Part shown: piece by piece, positions 16,001 to 54,300 of the stretch
Numbering within the stretch: the first letter of the stretch is position 1
How the letters are laid out: each line of letters starts with the position of its first letter
NCBI GenBank assembly: GCA_951406725.2
Contig: OX597820.1
Span: 79,546,001 to 79,610,000, forward strand
DNA: 64,000 nt
Direction: 5' to 3'
From: Octopus vulgaris
Lineage: Eukaryota
Notes under the pieces: model-generated
Databases searched by the model: none
What the model saw: the letters and a program-made list of their open reading frames with translations, nothing else
Told to the model about the DNA's origin: nothing
Position numbers and translations under genes: made by a program

Positions 16001-19000
16001 TACCAGCCCCTGTCAAACCATCCAACCCATGTCAGCGTGTAAAATAGATGTTTGATGATGAGGAATATTATCTATCTATGGTATCATTTTTTATTTAACT
16101 TTTTTGTTCTTCAACAAGTTAGCGCATGCCAAGGTCAAACTTGTTAAATAGATTAAGTTTTATTGTGTGGTTAAGCATACTTCCCAACCATCTGATCTTA
16201 GGCTCGGTCCTACTTCACATCATCTCAGACAAGTACTGGGGTCGATTCATTTTACTAAAATTCTTCAAAATTCTTCAGCTTGGCCGCAGTCTAATGACTG
16301 AAGCAAGTAAAAGAGGAAAGATACTAAATGCACCCCAATTTCAGTAGTGAATATTTAAGAAAGAAACATTTTAGAGAGACCCAACTTTACATATAGGGGT
16401 GACATTTTGAGGCATTTTTTTTAGAAAAAGAGTGCATTTTATATGGTATCAAATACAGTAAATACATGATGTACATGTATAACATTTTGTTTTTTACATT
16501 ATTTACATTTGATGGATATTTGTTTGTTAACACAACGTTTTGGCTGACATACCCTCCAGCCTTCATCAGGTGTCTTGGGGAAATTTTGAACCTGGGTTCT
16601 CATTCCTAAGGTATTTTTCAATGTATTATCATTATTATCATCATCATCATTATTATTATTATATGCCCATGGGCATATGGCATAGTGATTAAGAGCATGG
16701 GCTACTAACCTCAAGATTCCAAGTTTGATTCCAGGCAGTGACCTGAATAATAATAATAATAATAATAATAACAACAACAACATCAAAAAATACTTTAGAA
16801 ATGAGAACCCAGGTTCAAAATTTCCCTAAGACACCTAATGAAGGCTGGAGGGTATATCAGCCGAAACATTGTGTTAACAAGAAGCAAGATGAGGACAAAT
16901 ATCCATCAAATGTAAATAATGCACATGATTCCTCATCTCTTAAATATAGAACTGTATTTTGTTTTGTTTTTTCCTTAATTTTTTTTAATTAAAAAAAAAT
17001 TCTTGTTGCAGATATCTAGCATTGGAGAGTATGTGTTTGTTAGCAACATCTGAGTTTTCCCATGAGGCCGTAAAGAAGCACCAAGAAACTGTTATCACCT
17101 CTTTGAAGGTAATATGTTGTCTTTTTCTTTCTTTATCCCCCCCCCCCCCCGCCCATTTCTTATTTCTTTATTATTGAATATTTCCACTTGACTCTATGAA
17201 AGAACACATGTAACTATGTTTATTTGCACATTTACAATAGGCGCAGAAGTGGCTGTGTTGTAAGTAGCCCGCTTACTGATCACATGGTTCTGGGTTCAGG
17301 CCCACTGCGTGGCACCTTGGGCAAGTGTCTTCTACTATAGCCTCAGGCCGACCAAAGCCTTGTGAGTGGATTTGGTAGAAAGAAAGTAAAAGAAGCCCAT
17401 CGTGTGTATATGTATATATATATATATACATACATATATATATGTTTGTGTTTGTCTCCCCCAACATTGCTTGACAACCGATGTTGGTGTGTTTACGTCC
17501 CTGTAACTTAGTGGTTCGGCAAAAGAGACTGATAAAATAAGTACTAGGCTTACAAAGAATAAGTCCTGGGGTCAATTTGTTCGACTAAAAGCGATGCCCC
17601 AGCATGGCTACAGTCAAATGACAGAAACAGTTAAAAAGTAAAAAAAAAAAAAAGTAGCACATGGTATCTGTAGCCACTTGCCATAGAAGCAACAGCTTTC
17701 ACTGTTCATTCGCAACAGAAGCAACTTTTGTAACTGTCCATTTGTGATAGAGGCACCATTTAATATAAAGGTGCCATTTGTTGCTGTCTGTGCTAAAGGA
17801 AATATTTGTGAATAGTAAAAATGTTTGTGGATAAACTTGTGAATTTCCATTTGTAATGAAGCATAGAATATCGTTAGTGTTGGTCACTTGTATGAAGTAG
17901 GAAAGACCTTAGAAAAGAAACACAACAAATATTAAAATGCTACTTGCTGTTAGTTGAGTTCGTGATAGGGCTTTGAGCCTAAGTTTTAGCCATTTCTCCG
18001 ATGTTCTTAATGCTCCTGAGATGCTGCTTGTCTTCAAGTGCAAAACCCAGTGTCCATGTAAGAAATTGAGTTTTCTCACCAACTTGTACAAAACAAGAAA
18101 TTATTATTGTTTAATTTTTCTTCAGACGGAACGAGATGTGAGTGTGCGTCAGCGAGCTGTCGACTTATTATATGCCATGTGTGACAGGACCAATGCGGAA
18201 GAGATTGTGGCAGAAATGTTGGAATATCTGGAATCTGCTGATTACTCCATTCGAGAGGAAATGGTAGGTTTTCAGATTTTTATTTTTTCTTTGTTTTTTT
18301 TTGTGTACTTGCACTCTTTAACCCTTTAACTGAAAAATTAAATTTATTGGTTATTCCAGTAATTATGTTAAATATCTACCAAAAAAAAAAAAAAAAAGTA
18401 AAATTGATATTTTCTGCCAGTCACATTTCCTCCATAAACTTTGCATATCTCAACTAAAAGTAATTTCAGATATGACATTCCTCAACAAAAGATTGGTTTA
18501 TAAAACTGCCTTCTGCAGTTAAGGGTAATAAAATTTTGAGTGGATGTATCTGATTTTTGTAGTAAAAGGGTTAAAAGCTTTGCAGGAGTCCAACTTCACT
18601 GGCATATATTTTCTCAGAGATGAAAATTCTGCCCATTTTAAATCAGATTCTTTATTACAGATTCTTATTAAAAAATCAATAGTTTAAATTATTGATTTCT
18701 GTTATTTGCAATATTTTTTTATTGATTGCTTTGTAGAGAGGTTGAACCAGTAAATTTGAATCTGTAACATTGATAATTGTAATAATGATAATAGTGATAA
18801 TAAAAATAATAATTTCAAATTTCAACACAGTCATACATTTTTAGGGGAGTAACTTCACTCATTTTAATCTGATACTAATTTTATTAGTCCCACAATAGTA
18901 AAAAGCAAAATTGATTTCAGTGAGATGTGAACTCACCATGTCATCTGACAAAACTCAATACTACAATACATTTCATTTGGATTTCACTCTTTTCTACCAC

Positions 19001-36300: not shown

Positions 36301-39300
36301 TCTTGGTATAAAAGATGGGCTACAGCAAATATACCACAGATTTGCTTGTTAGCTGTTTGACCTTAACCAGTTGAGCATGTCCCTTGGTTCCTGACGATAT
36401 GTGCATCTCTGGTCATGATTAGAAGTAGTAGGGGAGCATCATATCCATGTGTTGAGAGGAATTCTTTGGAGTTTGGGTAATTCACCTTTAGAAACATGGA
36501 TGTTTCATTCATCATCCTTAAACCAACCTTATTCAGGGACCTTTTAAACAGGATGGACTACTCAACCTGAACTAAATTCTCACTGGACCCTACCTGCAAG
36601 GTCATGCACTATTTATCTTGGTATTAGGTCACCATGCTGCACACATACGGTTCTGATGCATGTACCTGGTGTACTCTTATCAGACGGGTAGTCATGATGA
36701 GCATATTGGGCTTCATATGTTTGTACCCCAGTGTCACTTTGAGGGGGTGTACTGCTCTCTCACTCAATAATGATAATAAGGCCTGCAATTTCAGGGAAGG
36801 GAGTAAGTTAATTACATTGACCCCAGTGTTCAACTGGTACTTATTTTATTGACCCCGAAAGGATGAAAGGTAAAGTCAACCTCAGCAGAATTTGAACCCA
36901 GAACACGAAGACAGACGAAATACAGCTAAGCATTTTGTCGTCTGTGCTAATGATTTTGCTAGCTTTCCTAATAATAATAATAATAGTAATAATAAAACCA
37001 GACAGTGGCTATCTGGTTTTACCAAGGGAACTTGGTAAACTGAATGTTCAGTGGTGTAGCCACTGGGGCAGTCTTTGGATGTCTCCCCACAAAAGTGTTG
37101 CCCAGGGCATATCCCCACCCTCCACTACACTTCTGAGAACATGCTACTGCTGCTACAACTCTTTTGCACTTATCCACTGGCTGCTCTCCAGAATTTTTCT
37201 ATTTCGATCTCTCTCCCTTACTAAAATATTTATTCCTACAAATCATAAACATTGACCCCCCCCCCTCAAACCGTTGCTAATAAAAGTAAAAGGAGGCAAC
37301 TTTAATCAATTATTTAATTAATTAATTATCAATATCAATTTGAAGGATTTCACTTTTTTGTTGTTCTTTATTATAGTCCCCAGCAAGAATCCCAGAAGAT
37401 ATTCCAGGCTCAGAATCCAATGGATGCAGAACAATCAAAGGCCAAGGTCAGGATCCTGTTGAATTCTTATATTTAATGACAAAAGAATTAATGAGATAAC
37501 ATGTTAAGTGTATGATCCGTTATGTTAATCACTTTGTATTGATTTTTCTAATTAGATTTTCTTCTTTTCTAAACATTTCAGATCCTTGGCTTCAACTTGA
37601 GTGTTTTAGAAGGCATTGATCCTAATAAAGATAACTTTGTGTCAGCTGGTATCTTACACACCAAATCCCAGCAGATTGGTTGTTTAGTACGATTAGAACC
37701 CAACTTACAAGCTCAGGTATGAAAGGTTTATGTCTTATGCCTCATCACTACACTTATCATTATCATCATCATCATTTACTGTCTGTTTTTCATGCTGGCA
37801 TGGGTTGGATGGTTTGACAGGAGCTGGAAAGCCAGAAGACTGCACCATATCATTATCTGTTTTGGCAAGGTTTCTGAAGCTGGATGCCCTTCCTAAAGCC
37901 AACCACTTTACAGTGTTTACTGGGTGGTTTTTGTGTGGCATCTGCTTTTTACGTGACACCAGCACAGGTGCTTTTTATGAGGCCCCAGTACAGATGCTCT
38001 TTACTACTTGGCACCAGTATGGGTACTTCTTACATGGCACCAGCATTTGTGCTTTCTATACAAGGAATCACTTGTTTGATTGACCAAATTCTTTACTCTT
38101 TGAATTTATGTATGAGTGGCTGACTATTCCAGAACCACTTATAATTCTCTGACGGAATCTCCATGACACAGTGTTTGATAAAGCTGTTACATCTGGCATG
38201 GGTTGCACTGTTTGGCAAGCGCTGGCAAGGCCAGGAGCCTATCAGGCTAGATCATCCTTCCTAACACCAAAGTGTAACTGCTTTACAGAATACATAAGTA
38301 CTTTAATCCCTCATCTCCTTGCATAAAGCCACCATCTCCCTTGGGGTTCATAGTCTTGTAAGCTGCATGGCAACCTCACTAGTGCTTGTCTTACAAAAAA
38401 TAAAGCAACCTTTACATGCTGTAAAGTGGCTGGCATTAGGGGTGAGAGGTCGAGGCATAGAAACCATGCCAAAGCAAACACTGGAACATGGTGCAGTCCT
38501 GGATCCCATCAGATCCTGTCAACCCCCCTGATTCATGTTAAGCTGGAACATGTATGTTAAATGGTGAATATATATATATATATATATATGAGTCCTCTCT
38601 GCTGAGTTGTTGGTGTTAGGAAGGACATTCAGCTGTAAAAATCCTACCAAAACAGTCACAGAAATCCGGTGCTGGCTCCAGCTTGGCTGGCTCTTGTGGT
38701 ACTGTCCCACCAATGCTAGTATGGAACATGGATGTTAAATGATGATGATACACACACACTCTCACACCACAGAACTTCCCAAAACTAGAAACCGGTATCT
38801 AAACATTATCTGAGCCTAATTAGGTTACCTATGAAGAAAAACCAAACAATACCAAAGTAAGCGATCCCTACAGACTATGAATCCACAAATACTTTCCACT
38901 TTACAAGATTGATGGACAATTGAGAATCACAAGGCTAAGATACATATATACACACACTCTGTCAATCCTTAGTGAGGTCCCTTTTTTATTGACAATTGAA
39001 GTTGACCATTGGACGAAAAAATTGAGAGACACTGCTGGACACCCAAACTGTTTTTTCCTTTTTTTTTTTTTTTTTGAATGACTCATTCACTGTTCACTTT
39101 CTGCACATTATTCCATGTACTGTTCTATGCACTTTTGGCTACTTTTGCTGATGAGTTTTATTGCACTAGCCGAGCACTATATGCAATAAGTTCATCATCA
39201 CCATCATCATCATCGTCATTATTATTATACTATGTAACACATTTCCTGACTTGAATAGAATCCGAATGATGTATGTTTTGTTGTGGTTGTTGTTATTATT

Positions 39301-39422
39301 ATTATTATTATTATTGCTTTTTTTTAATGATTTTTGTTTTGCAGATGTATCGTTTGACTGTCAGAGCAAGTAAAGATACGGTGCCAAAGGCTATTGGGGA
39401 CCTGTTGGCATTGCAGTTCTGA
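1277..39422 (+). CDS. AP2A: AP-2 complex subunit alpha (alpha-adaptin), multi-exon gene, 5'-partial (N-terminal exons upstream of window)
   Basis: Twenty exons join in frame (2574 nt including TGA). They give [15 protein letters not shown]...[32 protein letters not shown]...[24 protein letters not shown]...LLALQF*, which matches the alpha-adaptin trunk, hinge and appendage. All introns are GT-AG except one AT-AC. Confidence 0.97.
2163..2292 (+). CDS. AP2A: AP2A exon (130 nt)
   Basis: ttgtag|GGAGACT...CATATG|gtaata; [43 protein letters not shown]. Confidence 0.95.
2738..3340 (-). mobile_element. RTE-derived 3'-end repeat (ORF tail plus 3' UTR)
   Basis: Minus strand RGRPRKT coding remnant near 3340, followed by the common tail repeat ending in (ATG)n. 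Confidence 0.65.
3841..4065. mobile_element. piggyBac-type MITE
   Basis: TTAA-CCCTTTTGTTAT...ATAACAAAAGGG-TTAA (12-nt TIR, TTAA target duplication). A related partial copy lies at ~25864-26085. Confidence 0.8.
4964..5065 (+). CDS. AP2A: AP2A exon (102 nt)
   Basis: ttttag|GGTGTT...AGCAGA|gtgagt; [34 protein letters not shown] (absent from ORF track). Confidence 0.95.
8865..9083. mobile_element. Tc1/mariner-type MITE
   Basis: TIRs agggagtgctgaaaagttcctggcttt / aaagcctggaacttttcagcatgccct. Confidence 0.8.
10385..10840 (-). mobile_element. R4/Dong-like non-LTR retrotransposon 3' fragment (restriction-like endonuclease)
   Basis: Minus strand [33 protein letters not shown]...KIEKYQDLA...[19 protein letters not shown], with frameshifts. 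Ends in an (ATG)n tail. Confidence 0.8.
12252..12360 (+). CDS. AP2A: AP2A exon (109 nt)
   Basis: ttacag|ATTGTT...CCTCCAG|gtaacc; [36 protein letters not shown]. Confidence 0.95.
15359..15581 (+). CDS. AP2A: AP2A exon (223 nt)
   Basis: ctgcag|AGGAT...CTCAG|gtatat; [75 protein letters not shown]. Confidence 0.95.
16529..16574 (-). ncRNA. Minimal hammerhead motif, G12A mutated (probably inactive)
   Basis: Minus strand GACAC CUGAUGA A GGCUG..CAGCC AAA ACGU U GUGUU. Confidence 0.6.
16830..16875 (+). ncRNA. Minimal hammerhead motif, G5A mutated (probably inactive)
   Basis: GACAC CUAAUGA A GGCUG gaggguauau CAGCC GAA ACAU U GUGUU. Confidence 0.6.
17012..17108 (+). CDS. AP2A: AP2A exon (97 nt)
   Basis: ttgcag|ATATCTA...TTGAAG|gtaata; [32 protein letters not shown]. 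Confidence 0.95.
17239..17640 (+). mobile_element. tRNA-derived SINE, family A
   Basis: Same consensus as 22681-23123. Other copies at ~5848-6180, 6202-6598, 11219-11612, 14888-15260, 27400-27752, 30870-31110(-), 55553-56880, 59540-59875. Confidence 0.85.
18126..18263 (+). CDS. AP2A: AP2A exon (138 nt)
   Basis: cttcag|ACGGAA...GAAATG|gtaggt; [46 protein letters not shown]. Confidence 0.95.
18318..18574. mobile_element. piggyBac-type MITE
   Basis: TTAA-CCCTTTAACT...AGTAAAAGGG-TTAA. Confidence 0.65.
19346..19453 (+). CDS. AP2A: AP2A exon (108 nt)
   Basis: ttccag|GTCCTA...GAAGAG|gtaagc; [36 protein letters not shown]. Confidence 0.95.
20379..20560 (+). repeat. 26-nt tandem minisatellite (~7 copies) within an RTE-tail family repeat
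   Basis: Unit CTGGTGCTGGTGCCACATAAAAAGCA repeated head to tail with no spacers. Confidence 0.9.
21136..21210 (+). CDS. AP2A: AP2A exon (75 nt)
   Basis: ttacaag|GTCTGG...TTTGAA|gtaagg; [25 protein letters not shown]. Confidence 0.95.
22557..22654 (+). CDS. AP2A: AP2A exon (98 nt)
   Basis: ttgtag|GCTCTA...TCAAG|gtaaaa; [33 protein letters not shown]. Confidence 0.95.
22681..23123 (-). mobile_element. tRNA-derived SINE, family A (well-preserved copy)
   Basis: Minus strand aggtgcaggagtggctgtgtggtaagtagcttg...gggttcagtcccactgcgtggcaccttgggcaagtgtc...gaaacaagtaaaagag, with an internal TA microsatellite and many CpGs retained. Confidence 0.85.
25243..25372 (+). CDS. AP2A: AP2A exon (130 nt)
   Basis: tttcag|TCCTATT...CAAGAG|gtatgt; [43 protein letters not shown]. 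Confidence 0.95.
25420..25806. mobile_element. Long-inverted-repeat MITE-like element
   Basis: gattttgttgtgtcttgggtgggtcatta... pairs with ...taatgaccctcccagcatgcaacaaaatc, and the inner arms are also complementary. A related copy starts at ~33940. Confidence 0.65.
26332..26555. mobile_element. piggyBac-type MITE (second family)
   Basis: TTAA-CCCTTTAGCATT...AATACTAAAGGG-TTAA. Related copies at ~2305-2515 and ~19935-20155. Confidence 0.8.
27980..28270 (+). mobile_element. RTE-clade LINE 3' fragment
   Basis: [21 protein letters not shown] matches the RTE C-terminal G.R.RGRP..RW motif. Confidence 0.7.
28402..28503 (+). CDS. AP2A: AP2A exon (102 nt)
   Basis: tcgcag|GTCCTT...GTCTTG|gtgaga; [34 protein letters not shown]. 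Confidence 0.95.
29606..29785 (+). CDS. AP2A: AP2A exon (180 nt), end of trunk and start of hinge
   Basis: tcaaaaag|GCTACT...TCACAG|gtcagc; [60 protein letters not shown]. Confidence 0.92.
30383..30400 (+). CDS. AP2A: Candidate 18-nt AP2A hinge microexon (GNFKSR)
   Basis: tcttttgttgtttcacag|GGCAACTTTAAATCAAGG|gtaagt. Consensus acceptor and donor, length divisible by 3, no stop, located inside a phase-0 intron. Confidence 0.65.
30668..30858 (+). CDS. AP2A: AP2A exon (191 nt), hinge
   Basis: tttcag|CATTCC...TTTAAAAA|gtacgt; [44 protein letters not shown]...GADESFK. It carries the DLLGL and LLVDVF motifs typical of alpha-adaptin hinges. Confidence 0.9.
32764..32936 (+). CDS. AP2A: AP2A exon (173 nt), appendage Ig-like subdomain; ends at U12-type AT donor
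   Basis: ttgcag|ATTTATC...AGCAGTC|atatcctttt; [57 protein letters not shown]. Confidence 0.93.
32937..33713 (+). other. U12-type (minor spliceosome) AT-AC intron, 777 nt
   Basis: 5' splice site ATATCCTTT at 32937, branch site TTCCTTAAC at 33696-33704, terminal AC at 33712-33713. Splicing joins C+AG (Gln) and keeps the frame. Confidence 0.93.
33714..33837 (+). CDS. AP2A: AP2A exon (124 nt), appendage; begins after AC acceptor
   Basis: tagtac|AGTTGAAT...TTCAT|gtaagt; [42 protein letters not shown]. Confidence 0.92.
35018..35193. repeat. 176-nt element with perfect 26-nt inverted repeats
   Basis: AGGGTTCAACAAGGCGCAGCTGTAGA (35018-35043) / TCTACAGCTGCGCCTTGTTGAACCCT (35168-35193). Confidence 0.85.
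35377..35493 (+). CDS. AP2A: AP2A exon (117 nt)
   Basis: tttcag|GTATAGT...AATAA|gtgagt; [38 protein letters not shown]. Confidence 0.95.
37377..37446 (+). CDS. AP2A: AP2A exon (70 nt)
   Basis: ttatag|TCCCCAG...GCCAAG|gtcagg; [23 protein letters not shown]. Confidence 0.95.
37582..37716 (+). CDS. AP2A: AP2A exon (135 nt), appendage platform subdomain
   Basis: tttcag|ATCCTT...GCTCAG|gtatga; [45 protein letters not shown]. Confidence 0.95.
39345..39422 (+). CDS. AP2A: AP2A last coding exon
   Basis: ttgcag|ATGTAT...TTCTGA; [25 protein letters not shown]. Confidence 0.95.
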   Translation: MYRLTVRASKDTVPKAIGDLLALQF

Positions 39423-42410: not shown

Positions 42411-42948
42411 GCATGATGCTGTTTTATTTAGAAAAGTGTGAAAACACAGTTGAATTAATGATTGTTTTGTTGTGGTTGTTATTGTTATTGTTGTTGTTAT
42501 TCAATATATAAATATCAATAGTTTTATAGACTTCCTATACTGCAACACTGTTAGATTTGTACCAGAACCGGGTCTGCTTGGGCTCTTGATGTAAACCATG
42601 TGGAACATGAAGATAAAACTGAAATAATATCTCCTTTTTCTTCCTCTTCTTCTCCTCATTCTGTATTCCCCCCTGCCCCCACACACCACCTCTCTATCTT
42701 TCTTTCTTTCTCTGTTTGTCTATCAGTCTTTATACACACACACACATATTGAATACTGTTTAGTTGTAAAAAGGACACCCAAATGTCCTGAATCCATGCC
42801 AGGGATACTGTGAGCCCTTTCCACCCCTTTTCAGCATGGAAATATTAACGTAAAACAATGGTGATAATACAGTTCTATATTTAAGAGATGAGGAATTATG
42901 TACATTATTTACATTTGACAGATATTTGTCCTCATCTTGTTTGTTGTT

Positions 42949-42994
42949 AACACAATATTTCGGCTGATATACCCTCCAGCCTTCATCAGGTGTC
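42949..42994 (-). ncRNA. Minimal type I hammerhead ribozyme, catalytic core intact
   Basis: Minus strand reads GACAC CUGAUGA A GGCUG gaggguauau CAGCC GAA AUAU U GUGUU. Stem I GACAC/GUGUU, stem II GGCUG/CAGCC, palindromic 4-nt stem III, AUU cleavage triplet. Confidence 0.8.
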
Positions 42995-43184
42995 TTGGGG
43001 AAATTTTGAACCTAGGTTCTCATTCCTAAAGTATTTTTCGATGTTATTATTATTATTCAGGTCACTGCCTGGAATCAGGCATATGGCGTAGTGGTTAAGA
43101 GCATGGGCTACTAACCCCAAGATTCCGAGTTCGATTCCAGGCAATGACCTGAATAACAATAATAATAATAATAATAATAATAAT

Positions 43185-43730
43185 GCCAATCTTGCTTCAT
43201 TGGACACTAAACTCTGCTTGCGAAGACCTCTTGAGGCAAGGGAAATCGAAATTGAACCAAATTCGATGACAGGCACCCGTGCCAGTGGAGCGCTAGCAGC
43301 TCCATCCGAGTGAGATCTCTGCCAGAGCAGCTGCCTGACTTCCGTGCTGGTGGCGCATAAAAAGCACCATTTGAGCGTGATCATTACCAGCGTCGCCTTA
43401 ATAGCCCTTGTGCCAGTGGCACGTGAACAAAACATTCGAGCAAGGTCATTGTCAGTGCCACTGGACTGACTCCTGTGCAGGTGGCATGTAAAAAAACACC
43501 ATTTGAGCATGGCCGTTGCCAGTACCGCCAGACTGGCCCTCGTGCCAGTGGCATGTAAAAGCACCCACTACACTCTCGGAGTGGTTGGCGTTAGGAAGGG
43601 CATCCAGCTGTAAAAACTCTGCCAGATCAGATTGGAGCCTGGTGCAGCCATCTGGTTCGCCAGTCCTCAGTCAAATCGTCCAACCCATGTTAGCATGGAA
43701 AGCAGACATTAAATTATGATGATGATGATG
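43185..43730 (+). mobile_element. RTE-tail family repeat inserted in the (AAT)n tract of fold-back copy 2
   Basis: Diverged ~63-nt internal tandem units, then ttaggaagggcatccagctgta...gatgatgatgatg. Related copies at ~13860-14172(-), 28640-28880(+), 32176-32580(-), 33065-33380(-), 35565-35990(-), 37760-38070(-). Confidence 0.75.
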
Positions 43731-43784
43731 AATAACATCAAAAAATACCTTAGGAATAGGAACCCAGGTTCGAAATTTCCCCAA

Positions 43785-43830
43785 GACACCTGATGAAGGC
43801 CGGAGGGGATATCAGCTGAAATGTTGTCTT
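43785..43830 (+). ncRNA. Minimal type I hammerhead motif, core intact but stems mismatched
   Basis: GACAC CUGAUGA A GGCCG gaggggauau CAGCU GAA AUGU U GUCUU. Confidence 0.65.
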
Positions 43831-44406
43831 AACAACAAACAAGATGAGGACAAATATCTGTCAAATGTAAATAATGGTGATGATGATGATAAATAAACAC
43901 ACACACACATACACACCTTGTTTTTGAACAAGAATATTATTGATAGGAGTTTGAAGTTTCAACCAGTTAAGCCAATTTTGGACAATGGCTTAGCTTTAGC
44001 TCACCAAAACTTCAAAGTTACTATCAACAGTATCCTTGTTTAAGAATACTAAATTTGTACTCTACTAAAGTATAGAGTAACCTTTGAGATTAATCTAAGA
44101 TTGCTTTTATTATAACTGAACATAACAACAAACATTTATGTATATATATTATACACGCATAATACTTTTACAAGAAGCAGGATGACTAACTACAAAGTTT
44201 GAACCTGCTAACCTTTGTCAGACAGTCCAAAGAACGCTAGCAGGTTGATACTTCGAAGTCACTCTCATCCTCCAACTTGTAAAAGTTTAATAAATATATA
44301 CTCTGCAAAAAGAGTATTGAGTAATTCTTCAGTTTAATCTTCTTAAATTGTTTTTATTAGAACTTGACATAAAAACAAACATAAATATCATTCAATCTGT
44401 CTACAT

Positions 44407-45137: not shown

Positions 45138-45526
45138 TACTGTTCTATATTTAAGAGATGAGGAATTGTGTACATTATTTACATTAGACGGATATTTGTC
45201 CTCATCTTGTTTATTGTTAACACAACGTTTCGGCTGGTATACCCTCTAGTCTCCATCAGGTGTCTTGGGGAATTTTCGTACCTGGTTCTCATTCCTAAAG
45301 TATTTTTCGATGTTATTATTATTTAGGTCACTGCCCAAGATTCTGAGTTCGATTCCAGGTAGTGACCTGGAGAACAACAACGATGATAATAATAATAATA
45401 ATAGTAATGTTGAAAAATACCTTAGGACTGAGAACCGAGGTTCAAAATTTCCCCAAGACACCTGATGAAGGCTAGAGGGTAATAACAAACAAGATGAGGA
45501 CAAATATCCATCAAATGTAAACAATG
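45138..45526 (+). mobile_element. Fold-back tRNA-headed SINE with hammerhead motifs, copy 3 (head 5'-truncated)
   Basis: Inverted arms. Only the B-box half of the tRNA head remains (GTTCGATTCC). Hammerhead motif at 45219-45264 (-) and a half-deleted copy from 45457 (+). Tail at 45138-45172. Confidence 0.85.
45219..45264 (-). ncRNA. Minimal hammerhead motif, degenerate core and stem II
   Basis: Minus strand GACAC CUGAUGG A GACUA..CAGCC GAA ACGU U GUGUU. Confidence 0.55.
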
Positions 45527-46115
45527 CTTTTGGTTTTTGCTCCCCCCCCCCTTTTGGATTGAAGGATTAGTTTAAAGAATTATAACATTTTGATTTGTTA
45601 ATAATTTCTTCACATTTCATTTCAAACAAAATGCTGCTTTTGATTCTATTTGTAATTTGTTCTCTACTAAATCCTTTTTTATTATAATAACGACTGCCTT
45701 TCAAAACTACTATTGTTATCATAACACTTTATGATTTACCTGTAATTCTTTACGATTTTCAAAGTCATATCTTCTGCAGGTAATATTAGTTTGGTTAGAA
45801 ACCTAGAAATTGAAAACATTTTTTTCTCTCAATTGATCTTTGGTTTTTCAAAAGAGTGACAACTGAATCCTGTTCCAACCACCCACATTTTCTTCTTTCT
45901 TTCTTTTATCAGTTGTTTCTACTACTACTACTACTACTATTACTACTACCACCACCACCACCACCACTACTAACATTGTTAAAACAGACCAATTTTAGTG
46001 ATTTAACAGTTCTGTTCTGTTTTTGTAGAATTGGTGATGGAACTGACCAGTATGGCTCAACAATTTCCATCCATGTTTGCAGTACAAGCATGGAACCATT
46101 TAGTTAAAAGACATT

Positions 46116-47203
46116 TTTCAGGCTGGAAAGACAGTTTTGTCGCATTTTAGGGTGGGAAGGAAACAAATGCTTCTTTGATCTCAGTATATCTTATTAAAAT
46201 TAATATTTTCCCTCATTATTGATAACATAATCTCATCTGTTTGGCACATTGTTGATCCCTCAGGCATAAATATATCTTTCACATTTTGAAGCAAAGAAAA
46301 CACTTAATCACAATTAATGAGTTGTTTACCCTCAGAATAATGTCACAATGATCTGAAAATATGATAGTCAGATGGATTAAGGTCAGGAGAGTAAGAAAGA
46401 TGAGGCAAAACTTTCATATTTAGTACCATCATCTTGAGCGAATTGGCTCATATGTGGTCTTGTGTTGTTATGTAAGAGCAACACACCTTTACAATTGACT
46501 GATGATGGGTGCTTTATCTGCAAATTTTTTGTGCAAAGCTTCCAATTCATGACAATACTTCTCATGAAATGTTTCGTTTTGGTTTAACACTTCATGAGAA
46601 ACGACTCTTTGTATCCCACCAAACACAGTGTGGTCCTGGTTCTTTTAGGAAGGATTCTCCTGTTTCATTGGATGTTAACCATTGTCGTTTTCATTGGATA
46701 TGATTACAGAGAACTCACTTTTCATCACCTCCTATGATTCTACCCTGGGATAGGTTTGGTAACTCGTCTACCCTGCAATAACAAAGGGAAGGCAACTCTT
46801 TGATTAAGCTGAGAAGTCAAATGATGAGGTATCCACTGACCAAGTTAAAACTCTTTTCCTTGTTCATGAAATGTTTTAAGATCAAAAAGAAACTTGAATT
46901 GAAGTGCTTTACTAATTCTTGGGCTGTCTGCTTTGGATTTTCAGAAGCTTAATATTCACAGAACTTAGTTGTCCAGATTTAGAGGAATCTACAAGAGTAA
47001 AATTTTTCGAGCAAAACTATCATTACTATACCTGGACACTTAAAGCTACATTTCCATAGACAGAAACGAATATTTCTTGCTGCTTCAAATGATAAAGAAC
47101 CCCTTAAAAACACTAGAATGTAAAAATTAATACTTATTGTACAATAAGTATTAAAAATATACCCAGTATTAAGTCAAAATTGCGACTGGACTTTCTTTCC
47201 AAC

Positions 47204-47208
<5 letters not shown>
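46116..47208 (-). mobile_element. Old mariner transposon remnant
   Basis: Degenerate TIRs (tcaggctggaaagacagttttgtcgca vs revcomp ttaggttggaaagaaagtccagtcgca). Minus-strand RIIGGDEK*VL and KGVLLLHNNTRPH. Confidence 0.8.
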
Positions 47209-51392
<4,184 letters not shown>

Positions 51393-54300
51393 ATGTGCAT
51401 GCGTGTGGTGAGTTAGTAGAAATAATAATTTCCTCATGGACTTCAGATCCCACTGAATTTCACTTTATCTTTCATGTCTTTAAAAGTTTAATGATAAAAA
51501 CCAATAATAATACATAATAGTGCCAATTCAGTTGACTCTATGGTCTTCCATTTAAAATGTGACTCTCTGCCTATTTATTCCCTCCGGCAAAATGAAATCT
51601 TGCACATGCTGTTCTGCAACATGGCATTTAAAAAAAAAAAAGATTTATTATTATTATTATCATTCTTATTATCCAAAAATGAGGGCAGCAGAATGGCATG
51701 GTTTGCAGTATTTAGTTTAATGTTCATTCATTTCTGAATTCAAATTTTGCAAAGCTTGAGCTTGCATTTCAGTATCAGGTCTGATAATGGCCTAGAATGG
51801 ATTCCTTGGAATGTAGTCCCACCTCAAGAAATTTGTGGCTTTATGCCAGTCTAAGAAACCATTATCTGAAAATGAAAGTAAAAGTTTACATGTGGCTTTA
51901 AACGTAGCGCAGAGGTCATGGAGTGCTTGGTCATCTGTACAACAACAATCAATCAATTGTTGCTATTTGTTTGTTAGTTTTTGACATTTTTTTCTTGCCT
52001 TGTATGACATTTTAAAGCACTAAATAATCATTGTTACAAAGGTCCAGGTTTCAAATCCTAACCCTGTCATGACTCACCCCTTTTTTTTATTTTTTATTTT
52101 TTGTCCCTCCAAGAATGAGAGTTGATAAAATAAGTACCAGTAATATACTGGTATTAGTGGTGGTGGCGATGGTGGGGGTGTGATTTAATTGTATTGTTTT
52201 CTCTACAGATATAAAAAGGGCCAGCTTTGTGTGGAGACAAATGAAATTAAAATCCAAAATAACCAACCACTTGTCGTTGTTGTTTAGTCCCAAATCAACC
52301 CTAATTGGGTAAACCCAATCATCAAAAATACCTTTGCCTTCATCCTGATTATCTCCTTTAGTTTTTTTCTTTGTCATAGTATAACTAGAGTTACATGATC
52401 AATCACGTCCTTCCTTTTTAAGATTGTAAGGATTCGGAAATTTGGATGTCATTTCTAGCAGATTGAGTGGCCATGTAGAGGCTCTTAAAGTACTGGATGA
52501 AATGCCTCATAGAATATTATTTAACACCTGCCTTCCATGCTGGCATGGGTTGGATGGTTTTGGAAGAGCTTGCAAAGCCAAAGGACTGCATCAAGCTCTG
52601 CTCTCTGCTTTGGCATGGTTTCTATGGTTAGACGCCCTTCTAATGCCAACCACTTCACAGAGCAGATTGGGTGCTTTTATATGTGGCACCAGCACTAGTG
52701 GGTTCACCAAGTAACTCACAAGACAAGGTGCCCACCTCATTTGAGAGGGGTTTAATTTTAAGGGAGGTGACTTTGTGCCAGGTGAGGAGAAGTTAAAATC
52801 AGAAGTGTTTGATAGTAAAATGCTGGGCTAAATATCTTATAGAATATGATGGGATATCCAGTTAATTTCCATGAATGGACTTTTACTTGTTTAATCTGTT
52901 GGACAATTATCTACTCACTGAATTATTTTAAGGGGCTGAGTAATCTGTAGTAACATATTGGTCATCTTCGGGTTAGAATCAGTGTGACATAGTCTGTGAC
53001 AAGTTAAGACCTTTCAATTACTCATCAAGTCCATTCACCAGGCTTGGACATAATTTTCATCTCCCTAGATTCACTCAGATGGCCCAAGATGTCGAGTAGG
53101 GGGATTGATTCCAAGGCCTCGTGGTTGGAGCCATGCCTGCATTTATTTTATTATATACAGTTGTGCTTTACTTACTTTAACCCTCCACTCACTGAAGAGC
53201 GTAATACCATCAACAACTTTCCTTCAGTGTTTTTGATTTTAGGCTGTAAGGTGCTGCACTCATGATTGCTAGATTGTGGGTTCAATTCTCAGACCAGGCA
53301 GTGTGTTATATTCTTGAGCAAAACATCATTTCACATATCTCCAGTTCACTTGGCTATAAATGGTTAGTCTTGCAATGGACTCACTTTCCAATCAGGAGCG
53401 ATGTTGGCCTGCTCACCTAGTCATCATTTGAAAGTGAAAAACAATGCAAAGCATATTGTGACCAGTGATGTATAACCACATCCGATAGTCTGATTGATGC
53501 CGTGAGCTTCAGAGTATCCTCTCTTCCCTGTCTCTTGTGGGACATATATTTCCTCGAGGAAGGGCCTCCTTTCCCCAAGTCTTGATTGTTATGAATTGTA
53601 ATCAATGCTTTTGAAACTTTGCTTTTTTTTTCTCTCTAGGTAGGGATGTTGGCCCCTACACAAATTCATATTTATATTCTGGGAAGAGGTGGACCATATT
53701 AGGCCCTTTGACCTGTCCAGCAAGGGTAGTACTACAGGGAGCTGGTGTCCCACTGGTGAAGCTGTTAGGGTCCCTGAGGCACACAGTCCACCCCATCACT
53801 ACAAGTACTGGAAACTTGTAGTTTCCAGTCCTTGTAGACTGGAAGCTTATAGTTTAGTAGGGGTTAATATACTCAGTGTTGTGAACCTATAAATGTTTAA
53901 CAAATCAAAATTACACACATACTAACCTCCTTCAAAAACAAATAATTCATGGCAAGGGACGTAACTCCTAAATTGACTTAAAATTGTGTTGGGCATACAA
54001 TGGTGAGTGTGTCCCGATTTGGCTTTTTATTAACTTTGGACATGTTCCTCACTTAACCTGTATTTACTATCTGTCTCTCTCTCTCTTTCTCTCTCTGTTA
54101 CCATTCCAAAACCAACAGTTGGGACTGTTTGTCATTCAGTAAAATTAGTCTCTGCTAATAAATATATTGGAACCAATTCTTACCACCTGTTATTTTAATC
54201 CTTACAAATCAAGGATATTAGTTGTTGTTTAATACCAGAGTCAAGTTTCATAAATCAGTTCACTGATCAAAAGCATCCCTTTTCTATAAACCCCACTATT

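What the first reader, a model, noticed from the sequence alone, without database searches (positions are those of the whole stretch)
42949..42994. One hammerhead copy keeps a complete catalytic core and a palindromic stem III
Seen: the minus strand reads GACAC CUGAUGA A GGCUG..CAGCC GAA AUAU U GUGUU with intact stems I and II. Stem III changed ACGU to AUAU but is still self-complementary. The other five copies carry G5A, G12A, A9G, stem mismatches or a deletion. Established: loopless palindromic stem III hammerheads are proposed to cleave as dimers. Inference: this is the best candidate for live self-cleavage, and it lies antisense just downstream of the putative AP2A 3' end. The double change could simply be CpG decay on both strands.
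Basis: partly seen in the sequence, partly recalled or inferred. Interest (0 to 1): 0.7.

Follow-up and report, generated by a model that had tools for sequence, protein, structure and literature searches.

The report
Hammerhead-bearing Penelope-type SINE in octopus
The flagged self-cutting RNA motif is real but is probably a decaying, promoter-less half of an insertion; the repeat it belongs to is the more interesting thing, a short tRNA-headed octopus jumping element that appears to be copied by Penelope-type machinery rather than by the usual LINE machinery.

Summary
The motif is there: a minimal type I hammerhead at 42949-42994 (minus strand) with all core bases and stems I/II. It is probably not a live ribozyme. 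One intact copy in six is what neutral decay predicts (1.3 expected). AUAU is a departure from the family's ACGU (about 80% by depth) that weakens the dimer helix by 3.3 kcal/mol and mispairs with ACGU copies. The copy is a 5'-truncated arm without a promoter, antisense to AP2A, and a read-through RNA would pair it with its partner arm.

The six copies are three insertions of one ~285-nt element: tRNA-like Pol III head, (AAT)n, body, hammerhead. Each insertion is a head-to-head inverted pair with a 34-nt tail on one arm only and a flanking duplication (clear at two loci, degenerate at the third). The inverted arm and one-sided tail are published signatures of Penelope-like elements (PLEs); other loci show the same joint in public contigs. 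Best reading: a tRNA-derived SINE mobilised by a PLE. I found no such description in ten literature searches, but did not identify the autonomous partner and could not search Repbase/Dfam.

The parts
42949..42994 (-). Minimal type I hammerhead: stem I 42994-42990/42953-42949, core C3 42989 to A9 42983, extra A 42982, stem II 42981-42976/42967-42962, G12 42961, tetramer AUAU 42958-42955, U17 42954; predicted cut between 42954 and 42953
42868..43077 (-). Flagged arm of insertion B: inverted, 5'-truncated copy of the element; begins inside the B box, no A box; long 3' end
42869..42902 (-). 34-nt 3' tail present on one arm only of each of the three insertions (PLE-type tail)
   Evidence: 171 contigs with loose ends at 42868 in run X16
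43078..43184 (+). 5' part of the partner arm: tRNA-like head with A box 43084-43094 and B box 43128-43138, then (AAT)n
   Evidence: 1 match, 0 of 100 shuffles; weak Rfam tRNA match to model positions 8-63, 13.5 bits, E 7.6, below threshold; ARAGORN finds no tRNA gene
43185..43730 (+). Unrelated high-copy repeat (SINE-like) inserted later into the (AAT)n tract of the partner arm
   Evidence: many partial copies in the window
43731..43876 (+). 3' part of the partner arm: body, hammerhead with intact core but stem I and II mismatches and tetramer AUGU; short 3' end
42857..42865 (+). Left copy of the 9-bp target-site duplication of insertion B (right copy 43873-43881)
   Evidence: score reached by 0.27% of 3000 random flank pairs
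16495..16958 (.). Insertion A, in an AP2A intron: short inverted arm 16495-16670 (-) joined head-to-head to a full-length 286-nt copy 16671-16956 (+); 10-bp duplication at 16484 and 16956 (T-rich)
45138..45527 (.). Insertion C: long inverted arm 45138-45335 (-) joined to a head-truncated arm 45334-45527 (+); degenerate 13-bp duplication (score reached by 3.6% of random pairs)
39270..39422 (+). Context: reading frame holding the last coding exon and stop codon of AP2A (alpha-adaptin)
   Evidence: PF02296 positions 92-113 of 113

Best explanation
The flagged hammerhead is the neutrally decaying ribozyme motif of the inverted, 5'-truncated arm of one insertion of a short non-coding retroelement. 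The element (~285 nt) is a tRNA-like Pol III head fused through (AAT)n to the 3' end (pseudo-LTR with minimal hammerhead and tail) of a Penelope-like element. Mechanism, inferred: Pol III transcribes source copies; a PLE RT-endonuclease supplied in trans nicks both strands of an AT-rich target and primes two cDNAs at two internal start sites 34 nt apart; the two cDNAs, truncated at different 5' points, join head-to-head, leaving an inverted pair, a tail on one arm and a short duplication. Shown: anatomy, recurrence, decay. Inferred: Pol III transcription, PLE dependence, order of steps. This single copy most likely does not cleave in vivo.
For: Three of three insertions are head-to-head inverted pairs with a 34-nt tail on exactly one arm and a flanking duplication (9/9 and 10/10 exact, third degenerate). 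[quoted passage not shown] The hammerhead has the PLE minimal traits: extra base between 9 and 10.1, G10.1-C11.1, palindromic 15-16, short stem I, opposite-strand pairs 100-700 bp apart (PMC4209133). Perfect A box, 33-nt spacer and near-perfect B box (consensus from PMC8969392), no T4 run in the 286-nt full-length copy (15% of control windows are T4-free). All three inverted arms run on from the body into head sequence, so head and body were one template; no stand-alone head in the window. In public contigs, 6 of 15 listed joints (of 431) link different truncation points of the inverted arm straight to the head start 43078-43081, 4 of these in the two large, probably genomic runs. A related hammerhead family without Pol III boxes, 75-78% alike over 65-110 nt, lies in inverted and tandem arrangement in L002 and has C-G for U-A in stem II. 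Decay statistics.
Against: No autonomous PLE partner was found: no RT or GIY-YIG hit among the 55 proteins that match the translated 3' part, and no genome is held. The tRNA match is below threshold. Pol III transcription and strand were not observable (contigs only). Covariation on 9 sequences does not beat its shuffle control (110 of 500 for the score). Only 15 of 431 joints were visible, and joints with sides under 30 letters can be repeat artefacts. Divergence was measured against a six-copy majority. In the isolated arm stem II forms (p about 0.99) and stem I partly (about 0.43), so cleavage of a forced homodimer in vitro is not excluded.
Confidence: 0.75

Rival explanations
1. The flagged copy is a live, selected ribozyme on an antisense transcript downstream of AP2A, cleaving as a homodimer through AUAU.
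For: Core and both stems intact and the tetramer still self-complementary. It is the least diverged copy, 4 of 141 sites. The unique flank is present in contigs of runs X1 and X2, guessed to be RNA (not shown to be RNA, no strand).
Against: Expected by chance; 2 of its 4 changes fall in the dimer helix and weaken it; no promoter on that strand; 42 of 46 nt pair with the partner arm in a read-through RNA; PLE minimal hammerheads are inactive as monomers and weak as dimers (PMC4209133) and the one studied with protein needed the PLE protein and was dispensable for insertion (PMC11167929). U17 is recalled as a slow cleavage base (not confirmed, one search found no paper).
Confidence: 0.07
2. No true hybrid element: truncated PLE ends repeatedly insert into the (AAT)n tail of an independent short tRNA SINE because PLEs prefer microsatellites.
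For: PLE microsatellite bias is published; an (AAT)n tract separates head and body; an earlier scan note describes such a one-off join in another genome (e1-7811937; unchecked).
Against: All three inverted arms continue from body through (AAT)n into head sequence; the body starts at the same place in all six arms; no stand-alone head in 64 kb; other loci repeat the joint.
Confidence: 0.08
3. The copies are 3' fragments of a longer autonomous PLE or of a tandem retrozyme whose repeat unit happens to contain a tRNA-like stretch; Pol III plays no part.
For: Non-LTR retrozymes are proposed non-autonomous PLE derivatives (bioRxiv 10.64898/2026.07.22.740005); related 3' parts occur in head-to-tail tandems (P0003, P0009).
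Against: Copies begin at tRNA position about +1 at loci A and B and in 6 listed joints; no head-to-tail tandem among the three insertions; A/B spacing is intact.
Confidence: 0.1

Closest known systems
Minimal hammerheads in pseudo-LTRs of endonuclease-bearing Penelope-like elements (Cervera and de la Pena 2014, PMC4209133; Craig et al. 2021, PMC8557442; Frangieh et al. 2024, PMC11167929)
   Same: Type I minimal hammerhead with extra base after A9, G10.1-C11.1, palindromic 15-16; opposite-strand pairs; inverted 5'-truncated arm; 30-40 nt one-sided tail; AT-rich targets.
   Different: No RT/GIY-YIG ORF; the 5' end is a fixed tRNA-like Pol III head; no head-to-tail pseudo-LTR tandem at the three loci.
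Schistosoma Sm-alpha / Sj-alpha SINE-like repeats (known to me through the review PMC6765202)
   Same: Short non-coding retroelement with a Pol III promoter and a hammerhead.
   Different: Those carry canonical, active hammerheads and occur in tandem repeats with the promoter at the 3' end of the cleaved unit; the passages read describe no PLE-type inverted arm or tail. Here the promoter is at the 5' end and the hammerhead is PLE-minimal.
Animal non-LTR retrozymes (PMC7229834; bioRxiv 10.64898/2026.07.22.740005)
   Same: Non-coding, 170-400 nt, type I hammerhead, proposed to depend on PLEs.
   Different: Defined as head-to-tail tandem repeats giving circular RNAs; no tRNA head described in the text read. 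These copies are dispersed inverted pairs.
tRNA-derived SINEs (definition in PMC8969392; octopus SINE surveys PMC8967140, PMC13282606)
   Same: tRNA-like head with A and B boxes, 80-500 nt, flanking duplication, high copy number.
   Different: Described as relying on LINEs; here the 3' end and the insertion structure are PLE-type and there is no simple-repeat 3' tail.

Membership tests
Minimal type I hammerhead (PLE type) | Core CUGANGA / GAAA / UH with stems I and II | tested here: met
Minimal type I hammerhead (PLE type) | Extra base between 9 and 10.1, G10.1-C11.1, palindromic positions 15-16 | tested here: met
   traits from PMC4209133. Family state ACGU, this copy AUAU
Minimal type I hammerhead (PLE type) | Covariation supporting the stems | tested here: inconclusive
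   1 of 11 pairs changes on both sides (U-A / C-G); 110 of 500 shuffles reach the score
Minimal type I hammerhead (PLE type) | Self-cleavage as dimer or with PLE protein | not testable with these tools
   needs an assay; contigs show no RNA ends
Penelope-like element insertion | Inverted 5'-truncated copy adjacent at the 5' end | tested here: met
   3 of 3 loci; 6 of 15 listed joints at other loci
Penelope-like element insertion | 30-40 nt tail at one end only | tested here: met
   34 nt, 3 of 3 loci
Autonomous Penelope-like element | RT plus GIY-YIG ORF | tested here: not met
   286-nt element; 0 of 55 matching proteins carry such a domain
tRNA-derived SINE | Internal A and B boxes 30-35 nt apart near the 5' end | tested here: met
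   pattern after PMC8969392, B box used without its first G
tRNA-derived SINE | Head homologous to a tRNA | tested here: inconclusive
   Rfam tRNA 13.5 bits, below 29; none at locus A; ARAGORN 0
tRNA-derived SINE | Target-site duplication | tested here: met
   exact 9 and 10 bp at two loci, degenerate at the third; it flanks the pair, not each arm
tRNA-derived SINE | Pol III transcription | not testable with these tools
   no raw RNA reads listed
tRNA-derived SINE | 3' end shared with an autonomous partner | tested here: inconclusive
   related head-less 3' parts seen but none linked to an RT
Non-LTR retrozyme | Head-to-tail tandem units each with a hammerhead | tested here: not met
   0 of 3 loci

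The most novel reading that the evidence does not exclude
Octopus carries an abundant, so far unrecognised tRNA-derived SINE whose partner is a Penelope-like element rather than a LINE: a 285-nt Pol III RNA holding the whole cis-signal (hammerhead, two RT start sites 34 nt apart) for PLE insertion. Bolder and weaker: some inverted arms start at the ribozyme cut (joints at 42951 and 42952), which would be a genomic record of cleavage in vivo (about 0.15 on its own).
Probability: 0.55. Interest if true: 0.65.

Novelty: new variant of a known kind. Interest (0 to 1): 0.45.

Why it matters
SINEs are described as riders of LINEs. A Pol III, tRNA-headed element with PLE insertion scars would add PLEs as SINE drivers and would supply a 285-nt natural minimal substrate for the still poorly understood PLE reaction. 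Thousands of copies, each an inverted pair with recorded truncation points, would make two open questions testable by counting alone: how the inverted arm and one-sided tail arise, and whether the PLE hammerhead ever cleaves in vivo. The single flagged copy matters little.

Tried and rejected
Own genome: none held, so no genome-wide counts. Rfam: only microsatellite noise in the 150 of 342 window matches listed; no hammerhead hit locally. The repeat finder was swamped by the AT array. No RNA holder on record was listed; contigs cannot give strand, ends or level, so depth differences along the element were not used. Summed depth (element about 160,000 times flank; about 5,000 after dividing by 31) is not a copy number and is taken only as 'high-copy'. 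The locus-specific contigs reach only 25-28 letters into the element, short of the 31 needed to count as bridging; run X19 does not cover the junction, no conclusion. Metagenome scan: 1 hit, L001, a chance 21-mer in a bacterial sulfatase-like ORF. Viral scans: 0 and 0. Idea that the 51-codon open frame in the element is a PLE N-terminus: 55 hits, all 34-183 aa, none with RT or endonuclease domains; the best is an 'uncharacterized' Octopus bimaculoides entry that looks like a translated copy of the repeat. First duplication search used a wrong right end for locus B; corrected. Lunse et al. (PMC5785218) is not held. No paper found on U17 rates. Earlier-findings look-ups by place and sequence were blank; one search returned only unrelated prokaryotic notes.

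Full report
Observation. It is a minimal type I hammerhead: 5-bp stem I, full core, one extra A after A9, 6-bp stem II, tetramer AUAU, U17, predicted cut between 42954 and 42953. A strict descriptor finds this one site in the window and none in 200 Markov simulations. BLAST finds six copies with the listed defects. The copy at 43790-43825 (+) also keeps all core bases but has stem mismatches.

Host and context. The window encodes AP2A on the + strand; the last coding exon ends at 39419, 3531 nt before the cut. Several AATAAA signals lie between; the mRNA end is unknown. A translation of the repeat matches an entry labelled Octopus bimaculoides at 80%, so the host is inferred to be an octopus.

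Is this copy special? No sign of it. Against the column majority the six copies differ at 47 of 809 sites; inside the hammerhead 16 of 254, outside 31 of 555, in the 11 core positions 3 of 61. Expected copies with core and stems intact: 1.27 of 6; chance of at least one 0.76 (assumes three in four stem changes break a pair). In contigs of four public runs the family letters at 42957 and 42956 give ACGU: 80-83% by depth in X16 and X19, 62-75% in X1. AUAU is therefore derived. The partner arm shares two minority changes with the flagged arm (42957 and 42920; joint frequency about 0.02), which suggests ACGU to AUGU first and G to A later, not a compensatory pair. The forced 4-bp duplex is +1.6 kcal/mol for AUAU with itself, -1.7 for ACGU, and AUAU cannot fully pair with ACGU. 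The arm starts inside the B box; the only perfect A+B box in the window is at 43084-43138 on the other strand. In a minus-strand RNA across the whole insertion, 42 of 46 hammerhead bases pair with the partner arm and stem I and II probabilities fall to 0; the arm alone keeps stem II (0.99) and partly stem I (0.43). If AP2A transcripts reach this far, they carry the complement of the flagged motif. Published PLE minimal hammerheads show no monomer and low dimer activity (PMC4209133, parts 1-2 of 4 read); the anole one cleaves only with the PLE protein and is not needed for insertion in vitro (PMC11167929, parts 1-2 of 4).

What the six copies are. They form three insertions: A 16495-16958, B 42868-43876, C 45138-45527. 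The unit is 286 nt at locus A: tRNA-like head, (AAT)n, about 50 nt of body, hammerhead, about 85 nt of 3' end. Each insertion is two arms joined head-to-head, truncated at different 5' points. In each, one arm has a 34-nt longer 3' end. Flanking duplications are exact at A (10 bp, T-rich) and B (9 bp), degenerate at C; random flank pairs reach those scores in 0.13%, 0.27% and 3.6% of 3000 trials. At B a second, unrelated repeat of 546 nt sits in the (AAT)n tract. Craig et al. (PMC8557442, passages) describe for PLEs an inverted 5'-truncated copy adjacent at the 5' end and a 30-40 bp tail at one end; Frangieh et al. trace the tail to two RT start sites and show cutting and extension of both target strands. 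Cervera and de la Pena note opposite-strand minimal hammerhead pairs 100-700 bp apart.

Is the head part of the element? All three inverted arms read through (AAT)n into head sequence, and no head occurs in the window outside these loci. In one search, 6 of the 15 listed joints (431 in all) join arm positions 42920, 42951, 42983, 42989, 42997 and 43009 to 43078-43081, the start of the head; four are in X16 or X19. One more goes 42952 to 43092. These are short-sided joints in a repeat, so each is weak, but they agree with the three assembled loci. In X16, 171 contigs have loose ends at 42868, the long 3' end. The head matches the Pol III pattern of PMC8969392 (passages) with a 33-nt spacer, and the full-length copy lacks T4 runs (15% of control windows do). 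Its tRNA identity is below threshold.

Relatives. L002, an AT-rich, microsatellite-bearing contig that looks eukaryotic, holds four copies of a related hammerhead (75-78% over about 65 nt) in inverted and tandem arrangement with no Pol III boxes; they keep the extra base and U17, three of four keep ACGU, and three have C-G for U-A in stem II. Covariation is not significant against shuffles. Proteins such as P0003 and P0009 look like translations of a similar unit in head-to-tail tandem. This fits a PLE origin of the 3' part but names no partner.

A lead. Two of the seven arm-to-head joints break 1-2 nt from the predicted cut (42951, 42952), both in X1 and X2 only. A naive chance is about 0.01, but this is post hoc, the two may be one locus, and 416 joints were not shown.

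Comparison and novelty. The hammerhead and the inverted-pair-with-tail pattern are known PLE features. Pol III elements with hammerheads are known from schistosomes (review PMC6765202, passages), and retrozymes are proposed PLE dependants (PMC7229834, passages; bioRxiv 10.64898/2026.07.22.740005, parts 1-3 of 5; PMC8969392 says they may count as a kind of SINE). A dispersed tRNA-headed SINE with PLE insertion scars did not appear in ten searches nor in the octopus repeat papers read (PMC13282606, parts 1-2 of 3; PMC8967140, passages; also PMC6685494, passages). The library lacks most subscription papers, I opened no supplements, and Repbase, Dfam and the Zenodo consensus set were not searchable, so a prior entry is possible.

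Verdict. The family is best read as a tRNA-headed, PLE-mobilised SINE (0.75), a new variant of known kinds. Interest 0.45.

Noticed in passing
window 43030 and matching positions in the other five copies: The three long-tail arms share one letter and the three short arms the other, though the long-arm letter is only about 6% family-wide by depth. A 3:3 split matches long/short by chance 1 in 10; unexplained.
   Followed up: partly
window 42903-43048 with 43731-43876: A + strand read-through RNA would form a hairpin of about 137 paired bases, a possible substrate for A-to-I editing downstream of AP2A; editing not testable on contigs.
   Followed up: partly
window 16495-16958: Insertion A ends about 50 nt before an apparent AP2A splice acceptor near 17010 and forms a fold-back in the intron.
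   Followed up: no
window 43185-43730 and many other places: A second, more abundant SINE-like family with 26-nt and 66-67-nt internal tandem units.
   Followed up: no
window 47200-51400: A 4-kb AT/ATAC microsatellite array that produces the false miRNA matches in Rfam.
   Followed up: no
L002 1-4340: A contig filed in a bacterial genome collection is AT-rich, has microsatellites, a ~120-nt tandem array and PLE-type hammerheads; probably host DNA contaminating the assembly.
   Followed up: partly
P0002, P0018: Database proteins that appear to be translated copies of this repeat; P0018 joins 31 residues of it to an EF-hand_2 domain piece, a mis-prediction or an exonised copy.
   Followed up: no
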